Virus record (IMG/VR): IMGVR_UViG_3300002036_000001
Coordinates: 8,506-72,505 of that record
DNA: 64,000 nucleotides
Reading direction: 5' to 3' (one strand)
Origin: a virus
Position numbers and translations under genes: made by a program. A model generated the notes under the pieces. That model did not search any database. It was not told where the DNA came from and worked only from the letters and a program-made list of their open reading frames with translations. Each line of letters starts with the position of its first letter. Positions within the stretch are counted from its first letter, which is position 1. Positions 14,435 through 25,930 of the stretch are shown here, piece after piece.

Positions 14435-15439
14435 ATGAGTGTATTTGGACCAAATCAAGTAGAAGAGTTGATTATAGGAGATGCTGTGTCTAGTCAGGCA
14501 ACTATAGCTGATTTTATAGCTTCTGCTACTGATAAAGAAATTAAAGTTTTATCCGCTAATGGTGGTGCTTTGGCAGCAGGTGAAGTGTTTAAAATTTTAC
14601 AAAAAACTAGCGGTGATTCTGCTAAAGGATTAGATTATGAATTTAGTGATGTAGTAGATCCTTCTAAAGTAAATAAAGTAATAGTAAAAGAACATAATGC
14701 AGAAGTACAAAAATCTGTTACAATTACTGGTTTTGATGCAAATGTAGTAGCTGATACTACTTATGCTGTAGAAATTAGATTGTATAATGATGGGGGAACT
14801 TTATCTCCTGAGAATTTTGCAATTATCTCTGGTTACTATGTAACTAAGTCAAATATTGGAGCAACTACTGCTGCTGATATTAGAGATGGTATTGTTACTT
14901 CTTTAAATAACAACTTAAAGCGTAGAGGAAATAGTGAGTTTGTAATAACTACTCCTGATACTTCTGAAACTGATATTGTTATTACTGGAAAATTTCAAAA
15001 TGTAGTTCCTGGAAAAATTATAGGAAGACAAATAGATTTTGATGTTAATGCAAAAGTATTTGCAAATGTAACTTTAACACATGAGAATTTAGGATTGTTA
15101 ACTGTAACTGAGTTACAAAAAAACAACCCTGGAACTGGTACTGGAAAGTATGCTGTAAATTTAGAATGGTTTACTAAAGGTTATAAGTACGAAGCTTACA
15201 GACAATCAGGGTATCCTGCTGATTTTTCAGAAAGAACACCTTATTATGCTTCTGCTAATGGAACTTATAATACTATCCATATCAAATATTATAGTGATAG
15301 ACAAAGTCCTACAGTTGAGAAACAACAAAAAGTACTTACTATTTTAGTAGATGCTACTAGTGTTGCACCTGTAAATGCTGTTTTAGCTGATCTAAGAACT
15401 GTTCTTGGTGCAGCAAATGTTCCAGCAGATTTAGTATAA
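14435..15439 (+). CDS. Virion structural protein, probably auxiliary capsid protein
   Basis: 334 aa beta-rich, Cys-free, followed by a strong terminator as for MCP. Confidence 0.55.
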   Translation: MSVFGPNQVEELIIGDAVSSQATIADFIASATDKEIKVLSANGGALAAGEVFKILQKTSGDSAKGLDYEFSDVVDPSKVNKVIVKEHNAEVQKSVTITGFDANVVADTTYAVEIRLYNDGGTLSPENFAIISGYYVTKSNIGATTAADIRDGIVTSLNNNLKRRGNSEFVITTPDTSETDIVITGKFQNVVPGKIIGRQIDFDVNAKVFANVTLTHENLGLLTVTELQKNNPGTGTGKYAVNLEWFTKGYKYEAYRQSGYPADFSERTPYYASANGTYNTIHIKYYSDRQSPTVEKQQKVLTILVDATSVAPVNAVLADLRTVLGAANVPADLV

Positions 15440-15461: not shown

Positions 15462-15500
15462 AAAGGAGAGTTGGGTCATACGGCTTTTCTCTCCTTTTTG
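15462..15500 (+). terminator. Rho-independent terminator
   Basis: Stem AAAGGAGAG (15462-15470) / CTCTCCTTT (15489-15497) followed by TTGTTT. Confidence 0.7.
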
Positions 15501-15512
15501 TTTACAATAAAT

Positions 15513-16142
15513 ATGATAGATATAAATAATTTTACAATAATAGATAATGGAACTGCTTTAAGCGTTTCTGTAGAAACAGATTTAAACGAAACCATTACTT
15601 CTGCATTAGTTTGGACTGACCAGACTTTTAAAGATTATAGCCAAGCTATAGATGTAACAAGTTATTTGGCACAAACAAGTAATATAGAGAATTTTACTTT
15701 ACCTGCTTCTGTTTTTGGTGTAAACGAATTACAAGGTATATATTTTATAGAATTTCAAACTACTTCTGGATCAACAGATGATTGTGTAAACTGTTCTAAT
15801 AATTTAGGAGTTGCTGCTTCTTTGCTATGTTTTAAAGAATGTCTACTTGATAAGGTATTACAATATTCAGTTTGCGATGACATTAGTAATGAAAACTGTA
15901 ATGAAAGCATTGTAACATCTATTATAAATATAGATGTATTAGTGGATGCTTTATGTACTTCTCTAGAATTTGGTTATTATGGAGAAGCAATTGATATTTT
16001 AAAAACTTTAAGAAAGTTGTGTAATTGTTCAGAAGGATGTAGTGAATGTAACCAATGTAAAGATTGTAAAGACCTTCCAAGTCCTAACTTTAAATCAGGT
16101 CTTGATTATGGAACATTAGACAACACTTTAATATTAGTATAA
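15513..16142 (+). CDS. Cys-rich structural protein (fibre hub/attachment candidate)
   Basis: Start moved to ATG 15513 because the track start lies inside the terminator; 13 Cys including CNCSEGCSECNQCKDC. Confidence 0.6.
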   Translation: MIDINNFTIIDNGTALSVSVETDLNETITSALVWTDQTFKDYSQAIDVTSYLAQTSNIENFTLPASVFGVNELQGIYFIEFQTTSGSTDDCVNCSNNLGVAASLLCFKECLLDKVLQYSVCDDISNENCNESIVTSIINIDVLVDALCTSLEFGYYGEAIDILKTLRKLCNCSEGCSECNQCKDCKDLPSPNFKSGLDYGTLDNTLILV

Positions 16143-18404
16143 ATGGATAAAATCACAAGTGGTAAAATATTAGTAGGATCAAGCTTAAAAGGAATTAACT
16201 ATGCTAAAACTTATGGTAAGTTAAAATTCAAAGAACTATATCTATTTAACTTAATAAGTCAATTAAATAGTTTTTGTGAATTAAATAAGTCTTTTGCAGT
16301 TTCTCAAAAACTTGATAAAATACTAAGAGCTTTGCAGAATAAATATCCTACTATTTGCAATTATAGAAGTAGAGGAAATGATTCTACATTTATAACAGGA
16401 AAACCTGTAAAAGATTTAAATACTATTACAGATACAAATACTAAGCCTACAGTATTAGGATATAATTGTTATGATTATGAATATACTGAATTTAGTATTC
16501 CTTTAGAAACTGTTTTATCAGGATATAGTGATTCAGAAAATAATTCTGCTAAATATATCAGAATAAAATCTATTCCATTATTAGGAAGTTTAGAATATAA
16601 TAATGTACCAGTAATAATAAACCAAATAGTATTATTAGAGGATATAGATAATTTAAAGTATGATTTAAATTTAGTATACTCTGATGTAGTAAATGTAACA
16701 TTTACATATCAAATAGGTGATGATAGTTTAAATACTTTGTTTAGTAATGAAGTTACTTATAATATATGTGTACCTGAGAAACATAATTTACCTCCTACAG
16801 TAGAGGATGAACAAGGAGAATTAGATTCTACTAATTGTAGAACTTTTATATATGGTGACTTTACTAATAATTTTACAGATCCTAATGAAGGAGATGTACC
16901 TTTTGAAGTAGAAGTATTAACCCTTCCTTCTATAGGAGAATTAGAATTTAATGGTTCTGTTATTACAGCTCCATTTATTTTTGACATATCAGAAGTTAAT
17001 CAGTTAAAATTTTGTTTACCTGATGATTTTAGTGTTATAAATGGAGTAATATATTCTTATACAGGAGTATTAAATGAATTACTTAATGAATGTTTTGATG
17101 ATGGTTACGTAATAGAAAGTGTAGTAGATGGTACATATAATTTAACAAAAACAGAACAAGTTAGTATTACAAATACTACAAATATATATGCATTCTTTGA
17201 TACTACTTCTATGCAACAACAAGATGGAGTAGATGCTAAAATTGCATTAGAAACATGGTTTAATGGTTTTAAGATAGATAATTCTGATTTTACAGGAAAT
17301 TTATATGTAATTCCTACAGGAAATGAAAGATGGGTACAATATGGAATTACTCCCTGGACTGGTGTAATTTCTTTTGTAAATACTTTTGGACAATGGGGAA
17401 ATATTGCCCAACTACCTATTAATTTAAATACTCCTGAATGGATTTCTGATCCAGATGCTGTAGTATTATCATTTGTAGATGAAAGTAATTTTGATTATCA
17501 TTCAAGTAGTGTATCTGATGGATTTACAGGAGTAATTACTCAACCTACTCTAGCATATACAGGAGATTTCATATCTTTTAAGGATGTTTATAGTAATTAT
17601 AATTTTTTTAGAGGGTTAATATATCCAGTGGTTCAAAGCTTAACAGGAAATGGAGGAGCTTTAGTTTTACAAGCTATGGCTGCAATAGAAGGTACTACAT
17701 TGACTCAAGCAGAAATAAGTACATATAATACACAAGTAGATGTAAGTTTATTATTAACAACAAATGCTTATGAAAATCATTTAATCTCTTCAAATCCTGA
17801 TATATTTTTAGAACCATTAAAAGATTATAATTGGGGAGGTCAATTTGATAAAACAAGTCCAGCTAGTGAAGTATTTAATTCAACTACATTTAGTAATGAT
17901 TTAGATGAATTTCTTTCAGGAAGTATGGAAACTATTGTTACTACTAAACAAATAGTAGGAACACTTGTAACAGATCAACCAATTGATTTTACATTTAGAA
18001 CAAGTGATGATGATAATCTAGAACAATTGTTTAGTAATACTGCTACTTATACTTTGACATACGGTAATTTAAATAATTTACCTCCTGTTCAAGTAGGAGA
18101 TGGAAGTAAAACAATTAATAATAGTACTGTGATTACTTTTAATAGGAATGATTTTACAAACAATTTAAATCCTTCTTATTTAGATCCAGAGAATGATCCT
18201 GCATTTAAACTGAAAATAATATCTCTACCTTCACAAGGTACATTAACTTTAAATAGTATAAATGTTATTATAGATCAAGAAATATTATTCACAGATATTG
18301 ATTCAGGTTTATTCCAATTTACACCTAATCCTAATTTAGATAATTATAGTGTTGAATTTGACTTTCAAGTTTCTGATTCAGGATCTAATGAATTTGTAGG
18401 ATAA
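16143..18404 (+). CDS. Fibre/structural protein with three cadherin-like modules and a vWA-like insert
   Basis: Three repeats of N.PP...F...Y.DP..D....I..LP..G.L......I...D...F....SD; about 250-aa alpha/beta insert within repeat 2. Confidence 0.65.
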   Translation: MDKITSGKILVGSSLKGINYAKTYGKLKFKELYLFNLISQLNSFCELNKSFAVSQKLDKILRALQNKYPTICNYRSRGNDSTFITGKPVKDLNTITDTNTKPTVLGYNCYDYEYTEFSIPLETVLSGYSDSENNSAKYIRIKSIPLLGSLEYNNVPVIINQIVLLEDIDNLKYDLNLVYSDVVNVTFTYQIGDDSLNTLFSNEVTYNICVPEKHNLPPTVEDEQGELDSTNCRTFIYGDFTNNFTDPNEGDVPFEVEVLTLPSIGELEFNGSVITAPFIFDISEVNQLKFCLPDDFSVINGVIYSYTGVLNELLNECFDDGYVIESVVDGTYNLTKTEQVSITNTTNIYAFFDTTSMQQQDGVDAKIALETWFNGFKIDNSDFTGNLYVIPTGNERWVQYGITPWTGVISFVNTFGQWGNIAQLPINLNTPEWISDPDAVVLSFVDESNFDYHSSSVSDGFTGVITQPTLAYTGDFISFKDVYSNYNFFRGLIYPVVQSLTGNGGALVLQAMAAIEGTTLTQAEISTYNTQVDVSLLLTTNAYENHLISSNPDIFLEPLKDYNWGGQFDKTSPASEVFNSTTFSNDLDEFLSGSMETIVTTKQIVGTLVTDQPIDFTFRTSDDDNLEQLFSNTATYTLTYGNLNNLPPVQVGDGSKTINNSTVITFNRNDFTNNLNPSYLDPENDPAFKLKIISLPSQGTLTLNSINVIIDQEILFTDIDSGLFQFTPNPNLDNYSVEFDFQVSDSGSNEFVG

Positions 18405-18766
18405 TGAGTAAGTATACAATAAATATAACACAAAGTAAAAAATCTCCATCTGTAATAATTGAAAATAATTTAACAGAAGATTCTTGTTCTAGTACTAAAG
18501 AAATTACTATAATAATACCCAGTAATTCTTCTAAATATATAACTATAGTTCAATCAGGAATTGGAACAAATTATATAGGATTAACTGGAACTATAACAAG
18601 TAATACTAATTACACTTTAATAATCAATGGAGATAATACTAATGGAGGAATTTTGTCAGGCACTATAGTAGTGACTGCAAGAGATAAAAAGGGAGGAGAA
18701 ATAGAAGACCAATTAATTTTTACAAGACAACACGAAGGAACACTTTGTTCAGGGGGTCCTTCTTAA
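18404..18766 (+). CDS. Small Ig-like structural protein (120 aa)
   Basis: TAATG-coupled; beta-rich; paralogous to the N-half of 22704-23384 (DS.CS ... RQ.....C). Confidence 0.6.
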   Translation: MSKYTINITQSKKSPSVIIENNLTEDSCSSTKEITIIIPSNSSKYITIVQSGIGTNYIGLTGTITSNTNYTLIINGDNTNGGILSGTIVVTARDKKGGEIEDQLIFTRQHEGTLCSGGPS

Positions 18767-18781
18767 TACAAAAAAATAATA

Positions 18782-21700
18782 ATGATAGAATGTAATCAAA
18801 TAGCTATAATAGCAGCGCAGCTACAAGAAAGATTTGCTAAATGTAGGGTATTAAGAGCAGAAGATATGGATTTATTAGTAGATCTTATATTAGCTGTTCA
18901 GACTTGTACTGCATCCTCTATAGTACTAGATAATATCCCTTTAGTAACTAATTTTGGATCAGTTTTTCCAATAGGAGATAGTTTACCTATAAACGTTATA
19001 AATAAAGTAAATAGTTTACCTTTATTTACAGTAGAAGAGAATCAAATACTAGTTCTTACTGGTATATCTCATCCTATAGAGAGATCTTCAATATCTTTTG
19101 AAGTAACTTATATAGTTAATGGAAAAGGTAAAGGCACATATGGTACAGGAGGAGGTATACAATTAACAACAGCAGACCTTCAAATTATTGAAAATAAAAA
19201 AATAGATTTTGGTGGTACTACTCCTCCTATAGTAGATAATGATCCAAATTCTTTTGTTAAAGACTTAGGAGAAATAGATACTCAAAATGTAGTAGATGTT
19301 ATTAATAACTCTAATGAACCTTTTGTTATAACTACCCCTACTAATTGGTATTTTGAATATACTGCAAATGGTAGTAGAGTTCTTTATGGATTTAGAGGTA
19401 ACAATGGTACCTATGGAAGTGGTGCAAGTCAAATAACTATTGCTGATTTATTTTTAATATACGACGAAGATAATTTATCTACTGAATTTGAAGGATATAC
19501 AGAACAGGGTACTAGAGGGGGATCAGATCTTATTGTTAAAATAGGAGATTATGATGAAACTGGGGAAAGTAAAAGATTAGTAATAGATAATACAGGTTTA
19601 GATCTACCTATTACTTCTTTTTCAGATTTTAAAATAGATCAAGGTAATTTAATAATAAACCAAGGTGCAGGAGATGCAACAATTTCTCCTGATAATATTA
19701 CAGCAGATAGAACTTATCAACTTCCTGATAATTCAGGAACAATTGCTTTACTTAGTGATTTAGGAAGTACTACTGGAGGAGCATTTGAAAATACAGATGA
19801 AGGTTCTGGTAATGGTATATTTAAAGTAGGAAGAGATCCAAATAATTTTGGACCTATTGGAAGTAATGCTATGGATTTATCCACTTCAAGCGGAACAAGT
19901 ATAGTAAGAGGCGCAACAGGAACTAATTCATTTGCTATAGGAAGTAATGTAGAAGCAAGTGGACATGGCTCTACTGCTAGAGGATCAGGATCACTAGCTA
20001 CAGGAACTTATTCCATAGCTCATGGGTATAATACTACAGCAAGTAATTATTTATCTACTTCTATAGGATTAGGACATTCCGTATCTGGACCGTATTCTAC
20101 AGGATTTGGAGTAAATGCAGTTCATTCAGGAGCATATGGACTCTCAGCAGGAATAGGTTTAATTAATAAATCTACAGCTACTGCAATATTTGGTCAAGGA
20201 AATTTAGACTATACAAATACTTCTACTCAAATAAATATTGACGAAGCTCCTTTATTAGTTGTAGGAAATGGTTCAATAGCAGTAGGTTCTCCAAATACTG
20301 TTGCAACTAGAAGTGATGCATTTAATGTATTGTATTCTGGATTAGTATTAGCACCTTCTTTAGAAATAGCTGATATTGACGCAGAAACCACTGGAAAAGT
20401 ACTATTAACAAGAGAATGGTATGAATCTAAAGATTTAGATTTACAAACAGTAACAGATAACTCAACACAAGTAAATGGTGGAGCATTTACTACTAATAAT
20501 ATAACTATAGACAATGGAAGTAACAATGGTAGAATTACTTTTGGAACAACTAGTACAGGCTCTATAGGATGGGATGATAGTCCTGCTGGGGGATCTTTAG
20601 AGTTAGTTTCTAATAATAATGTTAGTATTATAGGAATGGCAGCGAGTAAATATGCTACATTAAATACTAATGGATTTGGGATAAATACTCAAAACTTAAC
20701 AGTACAAAATACTGCTTTTTTAAGAACTAATAATATAACTACCCAAAGGTTATTAGAATTACCTGATTCAGATGGTATATTAGTAAATACCGTTAATAGT
20801 ATAACTCCAAGTACTGCTGGAAATGTTGATTTATCTTTAGACAATACTTTAACAGTAAATAATGTAACAGCTCAACCTATTATAATGCAGTCTGCAACTG
20901 AGCAGGAATTAATCTTCCAAAGATTAGGAACTGTAGGAGATCAACTAAATCCAGTATTTTCTTTAGGTAGAATAATAAATGGAGGAATAAATGAAGCCAA
21001 ATTAAGATTTGTAGGTCGAGATGATTCTAAATATACTACTGAAAGAGCCTTTTTTGAGATGGAGACTGGCGGAACAGTAGCATCTTTAAGAGAAGTAGAA
21101 GGATCCCATTATGAAGGATTTATAGGAGCAGAACAAGAACCTATGTTTAGAATATCTTCTACTAATTTAGGAGGAGGTAATTTTTCTTCTAGAATAGAAT
21201 TGGGTTCAGGTGGAACTAATCCAACAGATGTATTTATAGAGAGACAAGGACCTAATCAATTAGGATTTGTATTAAGCGGAGGTACAAAGCAAATAATCTA
21301 TCCAGATTCTGTATTTAAGCCTTCAAATATTGTAGATGCATTTCAAAACTCTGTTACACCTTCAATTCCAGGAGCAGGAGTTATTAAAGTATATAATAAA
21401 GATGGACAATTAACCCAATTAGATGAAAATGGAGTAGAGAGTTCTTTAGTTCCAGGAGTTTTAGAAGTATTAACAAGTTCTAGAGCAACTATTGGAACAC
21501 ATGTACAAGGAATCGTTAATAATGAAGCAGAAGCAATATTTAAGATAGAATCTTTTGATTTTGGAGGAAACAATTCAAGCAGAATATTATTCGGAGAAGG
21601 AGGATCTGTTACTCCAGACGTTGCTTTAGAGAGACAAGGTACAAATACATTAGGTATTGTACTAGGAGGAGCTGTTAAAGTAAGATATTTTGCAGACACT

Positions 21701-22315
21701 ATTTTAAGACAACCAGATGTTGCTGATGCTTTTCAAGAAAATGCAGGAGTTGTAGCAACGCCTAATGCTGATGTTAAAAAGATTTTTAATAGAACAGGAG
21801 TTGGATTAGTAGAACTTGGAGGAGATGGTGTTGAAAAGCCTGTAGCAGATGATATATATAATACATTTGCAGATCTTCCTGTTGCAACTACTCTTACAGT
21901 AGGTAAAAAAGCAATAGTTACAAATGACCCAGTTGTAGATAATAATGGAGAATATATAGTAACAGGAGCTAATACAGGAAGTAATGGTACTACATGGATA
22001 AAAACAAGTGGTCAAAAAGTTACTACTGGTGTAAATTACACTTCTGTAGAAAATGGAGCATGGAGAGATTTAACTTTCGAAGTAGCATCCACAGCTGATA
22101 CAGATGAAGTTATTAATTTCCCTATTTCTTTTTCAACAGCACCTAATGCTTGGGATATTCAATTAAGCTCAAGACTTGATTCAGGTTTAGGAGATGCTGC
22201 ATTCGCTCTAATTTCTGGTACTGTAACAAGTTCCCAAATAACTGTAAATAGAGTAGATGCAGTAGATAATAATGATAACCCATTTATTATCGTTAGAGTT
22301 AGAGGTTTAATATAA
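18782..22315 (+). CDS. Tail fibre / receptor-binding protein (1177 aa)
   Basis: Gly/Thr/Asn-rich, YadA-head-like 14-residue repeats, internal tandem duplication, C-terminal small beta domain. Confidence 0.75.
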   Translation: MIECNQIAIIAAQLQERFAKCRVLRAEDMDLLVDLILAVQTCTASSIVLDNIPLVTNFGSVFPIGDSLPINVINKVNSLPLFTVEENQILVLTGISHPIERSSISFEVTYIVNGKGKGTYGTGGGIQLTTADLQIIENKKIDFGGTTPPIVDNDPNSFVKDLGEIDTQNVVDVINNSNEPFVITTPTNWYFEYTANGSRVLYGFRGNNGTYGSGASQITIADLFLIYDEDNLSTEFEGYTEQGTRGGSDLIVKIGDYDETGESKRLVIDNTGLDLPITSFSDFKIDQGNLIINQGAGDATISPDNITADRTYQLPDNSGTIALLSDLGSTTGGAFENTDEGSGNGIFKVGRDPNNFGPIGSNAMDLSTSSGTSIVRGATGTNSFAIGSNVEASGHGSTARGSGSLATGTYSIAHGYNTTASNYLSTSIGLGHSVSGPYSTGFGVNAVHSGAYGLSAGIGLINKSTATAIFGQGNLDYTNTSTQINIDEAPLLVVGNGSIAVGSPNTVATRSDAFNVLYSGLVLAPSLEIADIDAETTGKVLLTREWYESKDLDLQTVTDNSTQVNGGAFTTNNITIDNGSNNGRITFGTTSTGSIGWDDSPAGGSLELVSNNNVSIIGMAASKYATLNTNGFGINTQNLTVQNTAFLRTNNITTQRLLELPDSDGILVNTVNSITPSTAGNVDLSLDNTLTVNNVTAQPIIMQSATEQELIFQRLGTVGDQLNPVFSLGRIINGGINEAKLRFVGRDDSKYTTERAFFEMETGGTVASLREVEGSHYEGFIGAEQEPMFRISSTNLGGGNFSSRIELGSGGTNPTDVFIERQGPNQLGFVLSGGTKQIIYPDSVFKPSNIVDAFQNSVTPSIPGAGVIKVYNKDGQLTQLDENGVESSLVPGVLEVLTSSRATIGTHVQGIVNNEAEAIFKIESFDFGGNNSSRILFGEGGSVTPDVALERQGTNTLGIVLGGAVKVRYFADTILRQPDVADAFQENAGVVATPNADVKKIFNRTGVGLVELGGDGVEKPVADDIYNTFADLPVATTLTVGKKAIVTNDPVVDNNGEYIVTGANTGSNGTTWIKTSGQKVTTGVNYTSVENGAWRDLTFEVASTADTDEVINFPISFSTAPNAWDIQLSSRLDSGLGDAAFALISGTVTSSQITVNRVDAVDNNDNPFIIVRVRGLI
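19915..20160 (+). repeat. YadA/Hep-Hag-like 14-aa beta-roll repeats
   Basis: ATGTNSFAIGSNVE / ASGHGSTARGSGSL / ATGTYSIAHGYNTT / ASNYLSTSIGLGHS / VSGPYSTGFGVNAV. Confidence 0.75.
21098..21843 (+). repeat. Tandem intragenic duplication of about 120-130 aa
   Basis: GSHYEG..F.I.S...GG..SSRI..G.GG...DV..ERQG.N.LG.VL.G...DAFQ... occurs at about 21098-21449 and 21490-21843. Confidence 0.85.
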
Positions 22316-22323
22316 TAATAATT

Positions 22324-22692
22324 ATGGCACAATTCACAATAACAATTAATCAACAAACAAATCTACCACCATCTCAAGTAGGGGATGGTGCTAGAACTAC
22401 TGAGTATGGAACATCAGTAACTTTTACAAGACAAGATTTTACTACTAATACTGTACCTCCCTATCAAGATCCAGAAGGAGATGCAGCATTAAATCTTAAA
22501 ATTATAACTTTACCAGTAGAAGGAGATTTACTTTTAAATTCTTCTCCTATTATAGTAAATCAAATAATATCTTTTGCAGATATTGATAGTGGATTATTTA
22601 CTTATTCTCCTAATAATGGAAATACTAGTTTATATAATGATCCTTTTCAATTTGAAATATCAGATGCTGGATCTAACACCTTTGTAGGATAA
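22324..22692 (+). CDS. Stand-alone cadherin-like module (122 aa)
   Basis: Close paralog of the last module of 16143-18404: NLPP.QVGDG...DP E.D...LKII.LP..G.L.LNS...DIDSGLF...SD.GSN.FVG*. Confidence 0.75.
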   Translation: MAQFTITINQQTNLPPSQVGDGARTTEYGTSVTFTRQDFTTNTVPPYQDPEGDAALNLKIITLPVEGDLLLNSSPIIVNQIISFADIDSGLFTYSPNNGNTSLYNDPFQFEISDAGSNTFVG

Positions 22693-22703
22693 AAAATTTT
22701 TAA

Positions 22704-23384
22704 ATGGCTCAATTTAATATACAAGTAAATGCAATAAACTTTTTTGTAGAACAAACTAGTTTAATAGATTCTGAATGTTCTACTATAGTAGAATATACTG
22801 TAACAGCTAATACTAATGATGCTATTACTATAACATTAACAGGTAGTTATAGTAATGAGTCATATACTTCAAACGGAGTTACTAATTTTTTTAATGATAC
22901 TGTAATGGTTGTATTTAACAACTCATTAACTATATCCTTTGCAGTAGAAAATGGAGGAAGTGCAGGAATATTTAAACAAGGATTTTTAGAAGTTAATAAT
23001 ACAACTATTCCGTCTGTTTATACAGATAACGTATTAAGACAAAATGATTCACCTGTTTGTGTAAATGTAAATGCAGCTACATATGACGATCTAAATGATA
23101 CTCCTAATACTAAAATAGGATCAGAGGGTAAATTTATTAGAGTAAATGACGCTGGAACAGCTCATGAATATGTAGAAGTAAAAGGAGTAGATAAACATTT
23201 TGAATTTGACCAGCCTACCGCTCAAAGTAGCTGGGCAATTACACATAACTTACAGAAATTTCCATCAGTTACTGTTTTAAATACTAGTGGGGATGAAGTT
23301 GTAGGTTGTGTAAACCATATAGACGACAATACCATATTAATAATTTTTAGCGCACCCTTCGCAGGGAAAGCTTATTTAAACTAG
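22704..23384 (+). CDS. Fibre-associated protein (Ig-like N-half, THNL-type C-terminal domain)
   Basis: N-half resembles 18404-18766; C-terminal WAITHNLQKFPSVTV...FSAPFAGKAYLN is a common phage fibre domain. Confidence 0.65.
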   Translation: MAQFNIQVNAINFFVEQTSLIDSECSTIVEYTVTANTNDAITITLTGSYSNESYTSNGVTNFFNDTVMVVFNNSLTISFAVENGGSAGIFKQGFLEVNNTTIPSVYTDNVLRQNDSPVCVNVNAATYDDLNDTPNTKIGSEGKFIRVNDAGTAHEYVEVKGVDKHFEFDQPTAQSSWAITHNLQKFPSVTVLNTSGDEVVGCVNHIDDNTILIIFSAPFAGKAYLN

Positions 23385-23388
23385 AAAA

Positions 23389-24366
23389 ATGACAAAACAA
23401 TTTTTAGTAAACATAGATTTAGTTAAGAATCAGTTACTACAAGCAGTAATAGAAGTTTTAGCAGCAGCACCTACATCCCCTGTAGAAGGTCAGATGTATT
23501 ATAACTCTACAGATCAGACTGCTTATATTAGATCAAATAGTAGTTGGATAGATTTAGGAAATAGTGGAATTACTAATTTAACATATACACCTTCTCCTAC
23601 TAATGGAGTAGTTGTAAGTGATACTGGAACAGATGCAACTATTCCTCTTGCTGACACAACTAATGCAGGATTAATGTCTAATACGCAATTTGATAAACTT
23701 GAATTTATAACTGTTACAGGTAATATAGATTTAGATTTTATTTTAAATTCTGTATTAACAAATACTCAAGACATATCAGATATAGAGAATGCTATAGTAG
23801 GAGGGTTAACTTATGTAGGGTCTTATGATGCTGCTACAAACTCACCTGATTTAGATACAGCTCCATCTGGAGTAACAACAGGAGATACTTATACAGTAAG
23901 TGTTTCTGGCACATTTTATACAGAAGATGTACAACCTGGAGATATGATAATTGCAAATGTAGATAATCCTTCATCTGTAACGGATTGGTCTATTATAAAT
24001 AAAAATATTCCAGATATAGTAGACTCTTCTGAAACTGAAAAAGGAATTATACAAATAGCTACACAAGTAGAAGCAGATGCAGGAACTGATGATACTAAAG
24101 CTATTACATCATTAAAATTAGAAACTAGGTTATCTGCTTTGCCTTTATTAACTAAGGTAACTCAAACAATAGGAGATGGTACTGCTACTGCTATACCAGT
24201 AACTCACAATCTAGGAAATGCTTTTGTAACTGCTCAAATATATGAAACTTTTGCTCCTTTTGCACAAGTAGAAGCATGTATAGAGTTAACAGATCAGAAT
24301 ACTACTACTTTTAGTTTTAATACTGCCCCTACTACTAATCAATATACAGTTGTAATAATAGGATAA
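23389..24366 (+). CDS. Fibre-associated structural protein
   Basis: APTSPVEGQMYYNST motif, TETEKGIIQIAT-type fibre repeat (SETEKGIIQIATQVE), C-terminal VTHNLG domain. Confidence 0.7.
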   Translation: MTKQFLVNIDLVKNQLLQAVIEVLAAAPTSPVEGQMYYNSTDQTAYIRSNSSWIDLGNSGITNLTYTPSPTNGVVVSDTGTDATIPLADTTNAGLMSNTQFDKLEFITVTGNIDLDFILNSVLTNTQDISDIENAIVGGLTYVGSYDAATNSPDLDTAPSGVTTGDTYTVSVSGTFYTEDVQPGDMIIANVDNPSSVTDWSIINKNIPDIVDSSETEKGIIQIATQVEADAGTDDTKAITSLKLETRLSALPLLTKVTQTIGDGTATAIPVTHNLGNAFVTAQIYETFAPFAQVEACIELTDQNTTTFSFNTAPTTNQYTVVIIG

Positions 24367-25590: not shown

Positions 25591-25930
25591 AATAATAGGT
25601 ATGACACTTATTCCCCTAATAACGTGGTTTGTAACTAAGAGACACTTTCAAAAAAGAGATCTAAAAGATAGAGATGTAAATATAGAATTAAATCAATTAG
25701 AAATACTTTCTAAAAATCTAGATTTATATCAAAGAATGTTAGATGATGTAGAAACTAAATATGAAGAAAGAGCTTTTAAATCAGATGCTGAAAAAGAGGA
25801 ATTAGAAAAAACAATTGAAGAACTTAAAATTAAAATAGAAGCATTAGAAAAAAAGATTTTAAAACTTATTCTAGAAATAAAAGATCTTAAAATAAGATTA
25901 ACAAAGTATGAAAAAAATAGTAATTCTTGA
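25559..25930 (+). CDS. Holin-like membrane protein with coiled-coil tail
   Basis: One N-terminal hydrophobic segment (LFEIIGMTLIPLITWFVT), heptad C-terminus, immediately upstream of the amidase. Confidence 0.55.
   Translation: MIEWLTQNLFEIIGMTLIPLITWFVTKRHFQKRDLKDRDVNIELNQLEILSKNLDLYQRMLDDVETKYEERAFKSDAEKEELEKTIEELKIKIEALEKKILKLILEIKDLKIRLTKYEKNSNS

What the first reader, a model, noticed from the sequence alone, without database searches (positions are those of the whole stretch)
16143..23384. Cadherin-like fibre modules end one strand short and the next gene starts with the missing strand: possible donor-strand assembly
Seen: internal modules of the 753-aa protein finish F-strand (FTYQIGDD / FTFRTSDD) then LFSN-x-x-T-Y-x-I/L, then N.PP of the next module. 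Module 3 and the 122-aa protein (22324) stop at SD.GSN.FVG*, before that last strand. The genes after them begin MSKYTINI (18404) and MAQFNIQV (22704). The 122-aa protein itself begins MAQFTITIN-QQTNLPP, a terminal strand placed in front of a domain lacking one. Inference: the domains are completed in trans, as in chaperone-usher pili. The 753-aa protein would be the base, the 122-aa protein a self-polymerising extender, and the 120-aa and 226-aa proteins alternative tips, giving a fibre of tunable length and tip.
Basis: partly seen in the sequence, partly recalled or inferred. Interest (0 to 1): 0.75.

Follow-up and report, generated by a model that had tools for sequence, protein, structure and literature searches.

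The report
Phage fibre joined by strand plugs
In this marine crAss-like phage, and in about fifty related phage loci, small cadherin-like fibre domains are encoded one beta-strand short and the next gene starts with that strand, so the fibre pieces probably snap together like pilus subunits, a joint I did not find described for phages.

Summary
The 753-aa protein and the 122-aa protein both end at ...SD.GSN.FVG, just before the last (G) strand of a CSPG-type cadherin-like module. The genes after them begin with that strand.

- Of 55 small phage homologues, 52 end at exactly this point. Of 97 large cellular repeat proteins, 93 continue past it.
- In 51 related viral loci, a gene ending this way is nearly always followed by a gene starting M-A-x-F-x-I-x-I.
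- A complex prediction of the 122-aa protein with residues 1-135 of the 226-aa protein scored ipSAE 0.85, against 0.00 for the best control. This mark was reached by 58 of 80 solved complexes and 2 of 110 mismatched pairs; those counts hold only roughly because my own alignments were used. The runs agree in at least 97% of contacts and partner pLDDT is at least 82.
- In that model the partner's residues 1-13 lie antiparallel to strand F and parallel to strand A', which is the G-strand position.
- Socket type and plug type covary between neighbouring genes.

Trans strand completion is therefore supported but not shown. Self-polymerisation of the 122-aa protein and the exact chain order remain open. 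The base gene sits next to a tail-hub A homologue. This scan noted similar split-domain joints in other phages. I found no paper describing one.

The parts
15513..16142 (+). Cys-rich protein of 209 aa (223 aa from the TTG start at 15471). Probable counterpart of crAss001 tail hub protein A (gp38). Its stop abuts the start of the base gene.
   Evidence: hhalign of its family (A8) against gp38: E 1.6e-4, probability 50%, 147 collinear columns. BLASTP alone gave E 0.14. The gene before it (14435-15439) matches crAss001 gp36, the auxiliary capsid protein, at E 1e-9.
16143..18404 (+). Base protein, 753 aa. It has an N-terminal anchor domain, three cadherin-like modules, and a last module that ends as an open socket.
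   Evidence: phrog_22884 matches three times. Base-family N-termini are aligned in A6.
16143..16376 (+). N-terminal three-helix domain (aa 1-78) with an invariant Gly25 and Cys72. Presumed attachment to the tail hub.
   Evidence: Alignment of 23 base proteins. AF2 model: helices 3-24, 30-43 and 51-67, with pLDDT above 88 up to residue 70.
16737..16772 (+). Cis junction after module 1 (LFSNEVTYNICV), holding the G strand that the terminal modules lack.
17028..17981 (+). Insert of about 320 aa inside module 2 (aa 296-613). A vWA-like fold is only a lead.
   Evidence: phrog_37948 E 3.6e-73 over aa 299-595. Atlas feature score 0.79 to VWA_2 clusters and TM 0.33-0.37 to vWA pilus adhesins, all below the tool's trust marks.
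18027..18065 (+). Cis junction after module 2 (LFSNTATYTLTYG), holding its G strand.
18075..18401 (+). Module 3 (aa 645-753). A socket that ends ...SDSGSNEFVG with no G strand.
   Evidence: 53% identical to the 122-aa protein. Ends at model position 122 of 122.
18404..18766 (+). Cap protein, 120 aa. The plug strand MSKYTINIT (18404-18430) is followed by a two-cysteine cap domain. The start overlaps the base gene's stop (TAATG).
   Evidence: Cap-family relatives in 12 loci found by jackhmmer. Same position as the plug genes in complete relatives G006, G007 and G009.
18782..22315 (+). Fibre protein of 1177 aa lying between the two plug-and-socket pairs. It is context and has no cadherin-like module.
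   Evidence: Weak YadA-head repeats (Pfam E 0.0026). The N-terminal Cys-Asn-x-Ile motif is shared with the fibre genes at the same place in L013, L016 and L045.
22324..22692 (+). Extender, 122 aa. It has a plug strand MAQFTITIN (22324-22350), an NLPP linker, and one module that ends as a socket (...SDAGSNTFVG).
   Evidence: AF2 monomer pLDDT 94.6, with residues 1-16 not in a strand. Socket residues 19-30 and 100-112 contact the partner's plug.
22704..23384 (+). Tip protein, 226 aa. It has a plug strand (aa 1-13, 22704-22742), a cap-like domain (to about aa 125), and a C-terminal domain of about 55 aa ending AYLN.
   Evidence: Complex prediction. The AYLN domain is shared with other tail proteins.

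Best explanation
These genes encode a modular side fibre of a crAss-like podophage. Its pieces are joined by donor-strand complementation.

The 753-aa base protein is probably held at the tail hub by its three-helix N-terminal domain. From there it projects three CSPG-type cadherin-like modules. The last module lacks strand G and so presents an open groove, the socket.

A separately translated protein fills the groove with its first 9 to 13 residues, the plug (M-x-x-F/Y-x-I-x-I/V). The plug runs antiparallel to strand F and parallel to strand A', exactly where the cis strand lies in internal modules.

- The 120-aa protein, encoded with a TAATG overlap, is a plug plus a small two-cysteine cap.
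- The 122-aa protein is a plug plus one more socket-ended module, so it acts as an extender.
- The 226-aa protein, the next gene, plugs the extender and ends the chain with a cap-like domain and an AYLN domain.

What is shown: the truncation, the adjacency, their conservation, the covariation, and the predicted geometry for the 122 + 226 pair.

What is inferred: that the 753 socket takes the 120-aa plug, or alternatively the 122-aa plug; the location on the tail hub; and that no chaperone is needed.
For: 1. Truncation is a family trait. Of 55 small homologues, 52 end at the socket point, while 93 of 97 large cellular repeat proteins go on.

2. The genes that follow start with the strand in about 50 loci, at gaps of -1 to +45 nt. 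Enrichment is P 9e-16.

3. Cis equivalents exist. Internal junctions of the 753-aa protein, of phi14:2 g080 and of base proteins P0056, P0096, P0128, P0119 and P0156 carry the same strand between ...SD.G...F.. and N.PP. Several even keep Met-Ala (SNMATMTLNI).

4. In the AF2 monomer of the 122-aa protein the body has pLDDT 94.6 and no G strand. Residues 1-16 are not a strand and do not fold back.

5. Complex prediction of 122 aa with 226 aa (residues 1-135):
- ipSAE 0.85, 0.85 and 0.86; best of 3 controls 0.00.
- The mark was reached by 58 of 80 solved complexes and 2 of 110 mismatched pairs. These counts hold only roughly because my own alignments were used.
- The runs agree in at least 97% of contacts; partner pLDDT is at least 82.
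- Contacts 104:8, 106:6 and 108:4 are antiparallel to F. Contacts 22:4, 24:6, 26:8 and 28:9 are parallel to A'.
- No relative of the module has a solved structure by sequence, so a pass from memory of a like complex is unlikely.

6. Covariation. Sockets ending ..IWVQ are followed by plugs with a polar third inward residue in 12 of 14 pairs. Other sockets are followed by plugs with a hydrophobic one in 27 of 32 (P 1e-5).

7. Complete relatives with one socket have exactly one plug gene, directly after it (G006, G007, G009).

8. phi14:2 homologues g083, g081 and g080 are annotated as virion proteins from MS/MS.
Against: - No experiment exists. The complex score is a model's own confidence, obtained with my own alignments.
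- I could run only one pair, with no plug-deleted control.
- Structure models tend to complete open beta-sheets.
- Plugs outnumber sockets by one in the window (3 against 2), phi14:2, G001, G002 and L014. The simple one-to-one chain is therefore incomplete.
- A few sockets have no plug gene after them (L018, L026, L044, L042, L050).
- The covariation test is not corrected for relatedness of the loci.
- The link of the base N-domain to crAss001 hub protein B rests on gene order only.
Confidence: 0.7

Rival explanations
1. The 122-aa extender polymerises head to tail, its own plug entering the socket of the next copy. This gives a fibre of variable length that the 226-aa protein terminates, as major pilins and terminators do in chaperone-usher pili. 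It adds to the main explanation rather than excluding it.
For: - The protein carries both a plug and a socket.
- By the crude socket/plug rule its plug (F-I-I) fits its own non-W socket as well as that of the 753-aa protein.
- In G002 and L039 the only known sockets of the fitting type are the extenders' own, although both contigs are partial.
- Plugs exceed sockets in several genomes.
Against: - Relatives fix length genetically, with 1, 2, 3 or 4 modules per protein.
- In phi14:2 the extender's plug (F-I-T) fits the W-type base socket and not its own.
- In G010 three sockets and three plugs balance without polymerisation.
- No homo-oligomer prediction could be run.
Confidence: 0.2
2. One linear chain in gene order. 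Every protein plugs into the one encoded before it, and cap domains or other C-terminal domains also act as sockets of a different fold. The chain would be 753, then 120, then (possibly through the 1177-aa fibre) 122, then 226.
For: - This would balance plugs and sockets in the window, phi14:2, G001 and L014.
- 120-type caps end right at or just after a conserved cysteine, and in L014 and L020 the next gene again starts MADFNININ.
- The 415-aa plug protein of L039 ends ..GGGGITIFG, which resembles a socket end.
Against: - The 226-aa protein is not a fusion of the L014 267-aa and 234-aa proteins. Only the last 55 aa match.
- The 44-aa and 55-aa mini plug proteins of phi14:2 and G002 are too small to be obvious sockets.
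- The ends of the 1177-aa protein and of g081 show no truncated module.
- No test was run.
Confidence: 0.1
3. No strand completion in trans. The modules are stable without the last strand. The shared gene boundary is kept because it serves as a recombination joint for swapping cassettes. The N-terminal motif serves another purpose, such as docking elsewhere on the virion.
For: - The DNA at both window junctions is the same 12 bases, tttgtaggataa.
- The proteins downstream of sockets are very diverse, 44 to 492 aa, as expected for cassette exchange.
- The AF2 monomer is confident without the strand.
Against: - This does not explain why the cut falls inside a domain rather than at the linker.
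- It does not explain why the plug is homologous to the cis G strand.
- It does not explain the predicted geometry or the socket/plug covariation.
- A recombination role is compatible with the main explanation rather than opposed to it.
Confidence: 0.1
4. The pairs are made as one polypeptide by programmed read-through or frameshifting at the junction.
For: A TAATG overlap at 18402-18406. Ig-like domains are known to be added to phage structural proteins by frameshifting (general knowledge, Fraser et al. 2006, not re-read here).
Against: - Across 51 unique junctions the next gene lies in all three frames (27, 15 and 9).
- Gaps range from -1 to +128 nt.
- The stop is TAA in 52 of 53 cases, and an initiator Met is always kept.
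- In the window both downstream genes are out of frame with the gene before them.
Confidence: 0.02

Closest known systems
Donor-strand complementation and exchange in chaperone-usher pili (Fim, Pap, Csu, CFA/I)
   Same: An Ig-like subunit lacks strand G and is completed by the N-terminal extension of the next subunit. In the model the plug runs antiparallel to F, as after donor-strand exchange. There are initiator-like, extender-like and terminator-like components.
   Different: No signal peptide, no periplasmic chaperone and no usher. Assembly must occur in the host cytoplasm on a virion. The fold is a CSPG-type cadherin-like repeat, not a pilin. Structural matches to pilins are weak (Z 5.0-5.7, TM 0.25-0.45). 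The pieces are different proteins in a fixed gene order rather than one major subunit.
Cellulophaga phage phi14:2 g083, g082, g080 and g079 (crAss-like, Steigviridae)
   Same: Same gene set and order: a base ending ..IWVS, a 44-aa plug protein, a fibre, a two-module extender that begins MAQFLITTN, and a cap that begins MGTFSITV. Identity to the 122-aa protein is 47%.
   Different: Annotated only as virion structural or hypothetical proteins. The base has one module and no insert. The extender has two modules. No assembly mechanism is described in the record.
CSPG repeats, 'tandem-95' repeats and cadherin-like repeats of giant cellular adhesins (Pfam Cadherin_3, PF16184)
   Same: Best structural matches are CSPG4 (7ml7_B: Z 7.2, rmsd 4.0 over 103 residues; Foldseek 7n8x_B: TM 0.51) and AFDB clusters named tandem-95 repeat or cadherin domain (E 4e-6 to 4e-4). 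There are hundreds of sequence hits in giant repeat proteins.
   Different: There the repeats are complete and chained in one polypeptide. Here the last repeat is cut before strand G and the strand is moved to another gene. The Pfam score is below the curated cut-off (18.0 against 25.5 bits).
crAss001 tail fibre docking hub (THA gp38 and THB gp39; PMC10172136)
   Same: The gene order MCP, three genes, auxiliary capsid protein, hub A-like protein, then the base matches gp32 to gp39. The 223-aa protein aligns to gp38. Both hub and base families keep cysteines, and the paper reports disulfides in the hub.
   Different: The base N-domain shows no significant similarity to gp39. gp39 has 114 aa and no cadherin-like modules. 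crAss001 fibres dock by the N-terminal residues of gp22, not by a split domain.
Type V pili of Bacteroidota (FimA, Mfa1), from general knowledge
   Same: Strand-exchange polymerisation in the same host phylum.
   Different: There the donor strands are C-terminal. Subunits are lipoproteins and must be cleaved by a protease to open the groove. None of this is seen here.

Membership tests
Chaperone-usher pilins | Incomplete Ig-like fold that lacks the C-terminal G strand | tested here: met
   Alignment to cis modules. 52 of 55 small homologues end before the strand. The monomer model has no G strand.
Chaperone-usher pilins | An N-terminal extension of another subunit fills the groove | tested here: met
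   By prediction only. Partner residues 1-13 lie between A' and F. ipSAE 0.85 against 0.00 for the best control; the mark was reached by 58 of 80 solved complexes and 2 of 110 mismatched pairs.
Chaperone-usher pilins | Sec signal peptide, dedicated periplasmic chaperone and outer-membrane usher | tested here: not met
   The plug strand follows the initiator Met directly, so there is no signal peptide. The neighbouring genes are capsid, hub, fibre and lysis genes.
Chaperone-usher pilins | Pilin fold or sequence homology | tested here: inconclusive
   Only weak structural rows for FimH pilin domain, PapE and FimA (Z 5.0-5.7), below the CSPG4 match. No Pfam pilin hit.
Cadherin_3 / CSPG repeat (PF16184) | Score above Pfam's gathering cut-off | tested here: not met
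   18.0 bits against a cut-off of 25.5; E 0.0029.
Cadherin_3 / CSPG repeat (PF16184) | The same beta-sandwich fold | tested here: met
   The best PDB matches are CSPG4 repeats (Z 7.2 and 6.9; Foldseek probability 0.94, TM 0.51). AFDB clusters for cadherin domain, tandem-95 repeat and CSPG4 have probability 1.00. Z below 8 is middling by the tool's own note.
crAss001 tail hub protein B (gp39, PF25711) | Sequence or fold similarity of the base N-terminal domain to gp39 | tested here: inconclusive
   - No Pfam hit.
- BLASTP found nothing.
- hhalign E 0.36.
- No gp39 chain among the Foldseek rows.
- Only the gene position after a THA-like gene agrees.
crAss001 tail hub protein A (gp38), for the 223-aa neighbour | Profile similarity over the whole length | tested here: inconclusive
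   hhalign E 1.6e-4, probability 50%, 147 collinear columns. BLASTP E 0.14. Synteny agrees.
Type V pili (FimA, Mfa1) | Lipoprotein signal, protease-opened groove, C-terminal donor strands | tested here: not met
   The donor is N-terminal and there is no signal or lipobox. Proteolysis is not testable here.

The most novel reading that the evidence does not exclude
Phages use a chaperone-free, cytoplasmic donor-strand plug-and-socket system as a general way to mount exchangeable tips on virion fibres. In this family the very small plug proteins (44 to 120 aa) would be provisional caps. They would keep the socket folded until an extender or tip displaces them. This is a viral counterpart of donor-strand exchange, with socket and plug types (W against non-W) setting who joins whom.
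Probability: 0.15. Interest if true: 0.85.

Novelty: new variant of a known kind. Interest (0 to 1): 0.72.

Why it matters
Donor-strand complementation is a textbook principle for bacterial and archaeal surface fibres. It normally depends on secretion plus a chaperone and usher, or a protease. A phage version would differ in three ways: it would be built in the cytoplasm, it would join different proteins in a genetically fixed order, and it would be spread over at least some fifty 50%-identity clusters of marine phage proteins.

This would explain how these phages swap fibre tips by exchanging single genes. It would give a rule for predicting which fibre proteins join. It could also offer a simple natural protein-joining module.

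It is directly testable in a cultivable relative, Cellulophaga phage phi14:2, whose homologues are already known virion proteins. The distal tail fibres of crAss-like phages were not resolved in the crAss001 structure (PMC10172136), so this also bears on an open part of that architecture.

Tried and rejected
- **Megablast.** The region found nothing in the phage collection.
- **Word-index search with the 120-aa cap.** It found only itself. Cap relatives were instead taken from genes downstream of sockets.
- **The search for related loci with the 98-row alignment.** It failed for lack of a conserved stretch. A 12-row alignment worked.
- **PDB sequence search.** No relative of the module or of the 753-aa protein.
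- **Foldseek rows for pilins.** E 0.4 to 2, TM 0.25-0.45. I did not count these as evidence.
- **Base N-domain as tail hub protein B.** BLASTP found nothing, hhalign gave E 0.36, and no gp39 row appeared in Foldseek. I kept this as a synteny-based guess only.
- **The 226-aa protein as a fusion of an L014-type 267-aa cap and 234-aa protein.** This would have made cap domains sockets. I rejected it because only the last 55 aa match.
- **Read-through or frameshift fusion.** Rejected on frames, gaps and kept start codons.
- **Phage 7-7-1 and Milano collar protein** (9rkt_A: Z 6.0, 27% identity over 75 residues). Its matching D domain is an insert in one chain, and the papers describe no split domain.
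- **Literature searches.** Searches combining donor strand or strand complementation with phage, tail fibre or Ig-like found only host pili and reviews.


Full report
**Setting**

The window is part of a 98.9-kb viral record with about 27% G+C. Its nearest named relative is Cellulophaga phage phi14:2, a crAss-like podophage of the Steigviridae.

Upstream of the finding lie three informative genes:
- the major head protein (phrog_11589, E 5e-145);
- a homologue of the crAss001 auxiliary capsid protein gp36 (E 1e-9);
- a Cys-rich protein whose family aligns to crAss001 tail hub protein A, gp38 (hhalign E 1.6e-4, probability 50%).

The 753-aa gene starts at the stop of that hub-like gene. An amidase-type endolysin follows at 25908.

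**The observation**

- The 753-aa protein has two internal junctions. In each, an F strand (FTYQIGDD, FTFRTSDD) is followed by LFSN plus a strand (EVTYNICV, TATYTLTYG) and then N.PP.
- Its last module, and the 122-aa protein, stop at SD.GSN.FVG.
- The 122-aa protein begins with strand plus linker (MAQFTITINQQTNLPP).
- The following genes begin MSKYTINI and MAQFNIQV.

By the known layout of cadherin repeats, strand G leads straight into the linker that precedes strand A of the next repeat (general knowledge). So the N-terminal piece is a G strand, and the C-terminal ends lack one.

**Is it more than chance?**

An exhaustive profile-free search with the 122-aa protein found 1961 representatives. 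Among the best 150 there are two kinds.

- Giant cellular repeat proteins continue after the last match in 93 of 97 cases.
- Small proteins under 700 aa end within one residue of the same point in 52 of 55 cases. Most of these begin MA.FTI....N.PP.

A scan of IMG/VR gave 51 loci. In these, genes ending with a socket are followed at -1 to about +45 nt by a gene whose product begins with the strand. The rest of the downstream protein ranges from 44 to 492 aa and belongs to several families. The motif is enriched after sockets at P 9e-16, even with a pattern that misses the MLYTITN variants.

The stop is TAA in 52 of 53 cases. The next gene lies in any of the three frames and always keeps its Met. 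Fusion by recoding is therefore not the explanation.

**Cis equivalents**

Base proteins from other phages carry the same junction inside one chain. These are P0056, P0096, P0128, P0119 and P0156. Several read ..LFSNMATMTLNI..N.PP, so the Met-Ala of the free plug is kept.

Two-module extenders such as phi14:2 g080 carry the strand between their modules. This is the Rosetta-stone argument that the free N-terminal strand and the missing C-terminal strand are the same structural element.

**Structure**

*Monomer.* With a 98-row alignment, AF2 models the 122-aa protein at pLDDT 94.6. Residues 1-16 form no strand (pLDDT 76) and nothing occupies the G position, so the plug does not fold back.

*Fold.* The best PDB matches are CSPG4 repeats:
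- 7ml7_B: Z 7.2, rmsd 4.0 over 103 residues;
- 7n8x_B: Foldseek TM 0.51.

AFDB clusters named tandem-95 repeat or cadherin domain also match. Pfam Cadherin_3 scores below its cut-off.

- ipSAE was 0.85, 0.85 and 0.86; the best of three controls was 0.00.
- The mark was reached by 58 of 80 solved complexes and 2 of 110 mismatched pairs. The tool notes these counts hold only roughly with my own alignments.
- The runs agree in at least 97% of contacts, and partner pLDDT is at least 82.
- The interface is partner residues 1-13 against residues 19-30 and 100-112 of the 122-aa protein.
- The pairs 104:8, 106:6 and 108:4 run antiparallel. The pairs 22:4, 24:6, 26:8 and 28:9 run parallel. This is the topology of strand G between F and A'.

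No sequence relative has a solved structure, so the pass is unlikely to be from memory of a like complex. The model supports binding; it does not show it.

**Covariation**

Sockets fall into two end types. One ends ..RD.GS.IWV(Q/D/S). The other ends ..SD.GS..F...

- Plugs after the first type have a polar third inward residue (YTITN, FNVTN, LNISN, FNIIS) in 12 of 14 unique pairs.
- Plugs after the second type have a hydrophobic one (FTITI, FNIQV, FSITV) in 27 of 32 (Fisher P 1e-5).

Related loci are not independent, so the P value is generous. However, the W-type set includes at least five different plug proteins.

**Who joins whom**

- Complete relatives with a single socket (G006, G007, G009) have exactly one plug gene, directly after the base. 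The 753 + 120 pair of the window is thus the basic unit.
- Many phages have base, extender and cap as three consecutive genes (L017, L022, L024, L027, L043, L049, L056, G001).
- G010 has a base, an extender with no cap after it, and elsewhere a second extender plus a 229-aa tip. That gives three sockets and three plugs. It balances only if the second extender plugs into the first.
- In phi14:2 the extender's plug (F-I-T) fits the W-type base socket, not its own.

They speak against obligatory self-polymerisation. In the window, however, all plugs and both sockets are of the same type, so the choice between 753-122 and 122-122 cannot be made.

Plugs exceed sockets by one in the window, phi14:2, G001, G002 and L014. 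This fits alternative ends (120, or 122 + 226) on a multi-copy base. It also fits a further socket that I did not recognise.

**Location**

In every crAss-like locus the base gene follows the hub-A-like gene. It therefore occupies the place of crAss001 gp39, hub protein B.

Its N-terminal domain is a confident three-helix unit with an invariant cysteine. It has no significant similarity to gp39. Attachment at the tail hub is therefore an inference from gene order. If it is right, there would be one such side fibre per hub.

**Comparison with what is known, and novelty**

The mechanism resembles donor-strand complementation in chaperone-usher pili. It fails the membership tests for that family: there is no signal peptide, chaperone, usher or pilin fold.

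My searches of the paper library found the principle only for cellular pili. The crAss001 structure paper left the distal fibres unresolved.

Earlier notes of this scan report analogous split-domain joints in other, unrelated phages. They are unchecked AI notes. I treat them as a sign that the theme may be general, not as evidence.

I rate this a new variant of a known kind. It is well supported by sequence and prediction but untested at the bench.

Noticed in passing
window 17028-17981 (aa 296-613 of the 753-aa protein): A domain of about 320 aa is inserted between two strands of module 2. It matches phrog_37948, a 2289-aa virion protein family, at E 3.6e-73. It gives weak vWA-like leads (Atlas score 0.79; TM 0.33-0.37 to vWA pilus tip adhesins). 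A vWA domain inserted in an Ig-like domain would recall Gram-positive pilus tip adhesins.
   Followed up: partly
Proteins P0056, P0096, P0128, P0119, P0156, P0042: Six base proteins keep Met-Ala at an internal junction ahead of a module (..SNMATMTLNI..; in P0042 directly after the N-terminal domain), whereas the junctions inside extenders do not. This may be a scar of gene fusion or an internal start that also yields a free extender.
   Followed up: no
window 23200-23384; L014:7288-7992, L033:7262-7666, L037:8435-9526: A C-terminal domain of about 55 aa ending F.G.AYLN is shared by the 226-aa tip and by several otherwise unrelated neighbouring tail proteins in related phages (50% identity to the L014 234-aa protein, E 1e-13). 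Function unknown (phrog_10272 and others).
   Followed up: partly
window 18404-18766, 22704-23080; L001:9732-10073: Cap domains keep two cysteines (C28 and C115 of the 120-aa protein). This suggests a disulfide that closes the domain.
   Followed up: no
L001:7182-7316 (phi14:2 g082) and L063:1923-2090: Plug proteins of only 44 and 55 aa (MAIFNIIS.., MALFNITS..) follow W-type base sockets. phi14:2 g082 is annotated from an upstream ATG, but the conserved plug starts at the internal Met, which overlaps the base gene's stop.
   Followed up: partly
window 18782-18830; L013:6673, L016:6775, L045:6679: The fibre genes after the base-cap pair share an N-terminal motif with a cysteine (M..C.(E/Q)IN..A..L). 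This may be a hub-docking helix like the N-terminus of crAss001 gp22.
   Followed up: no
window 23389-24366; L033:7687, L037:9539, L065:812-1837 (minus strand): The 325-aa protein after the tip begins with a conserved ..(F/Y)L..(I/L)DL.KNQLL.. motif and ends ..N(Q/E)Y.V(V/I)I.G in many loci. It is another conserved fibre-end pair that was not examined.
   Followed up: no
L057-L061 (6329-6372): A more distant lineage (about 30% identity) has two-module proteins ending ..GSGQYSGL, followed at +1 or +2 nt by proteins that begin MAELKLIAV. The split junction therefore extends beyond the crAss-like group.
   Followed up: no
model m97e48cf1eef7 against 9rkt_A: The module resembles the decorating (D) domain of the collar protein of Agrobacterium phages 7-7-1 and Milano (Z 6.0, rmsd 2.3, 27% identity over 75 residues). 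The Milano paper describes that domain as structurally similar to glycan-binding domains.
   Followed up: partly
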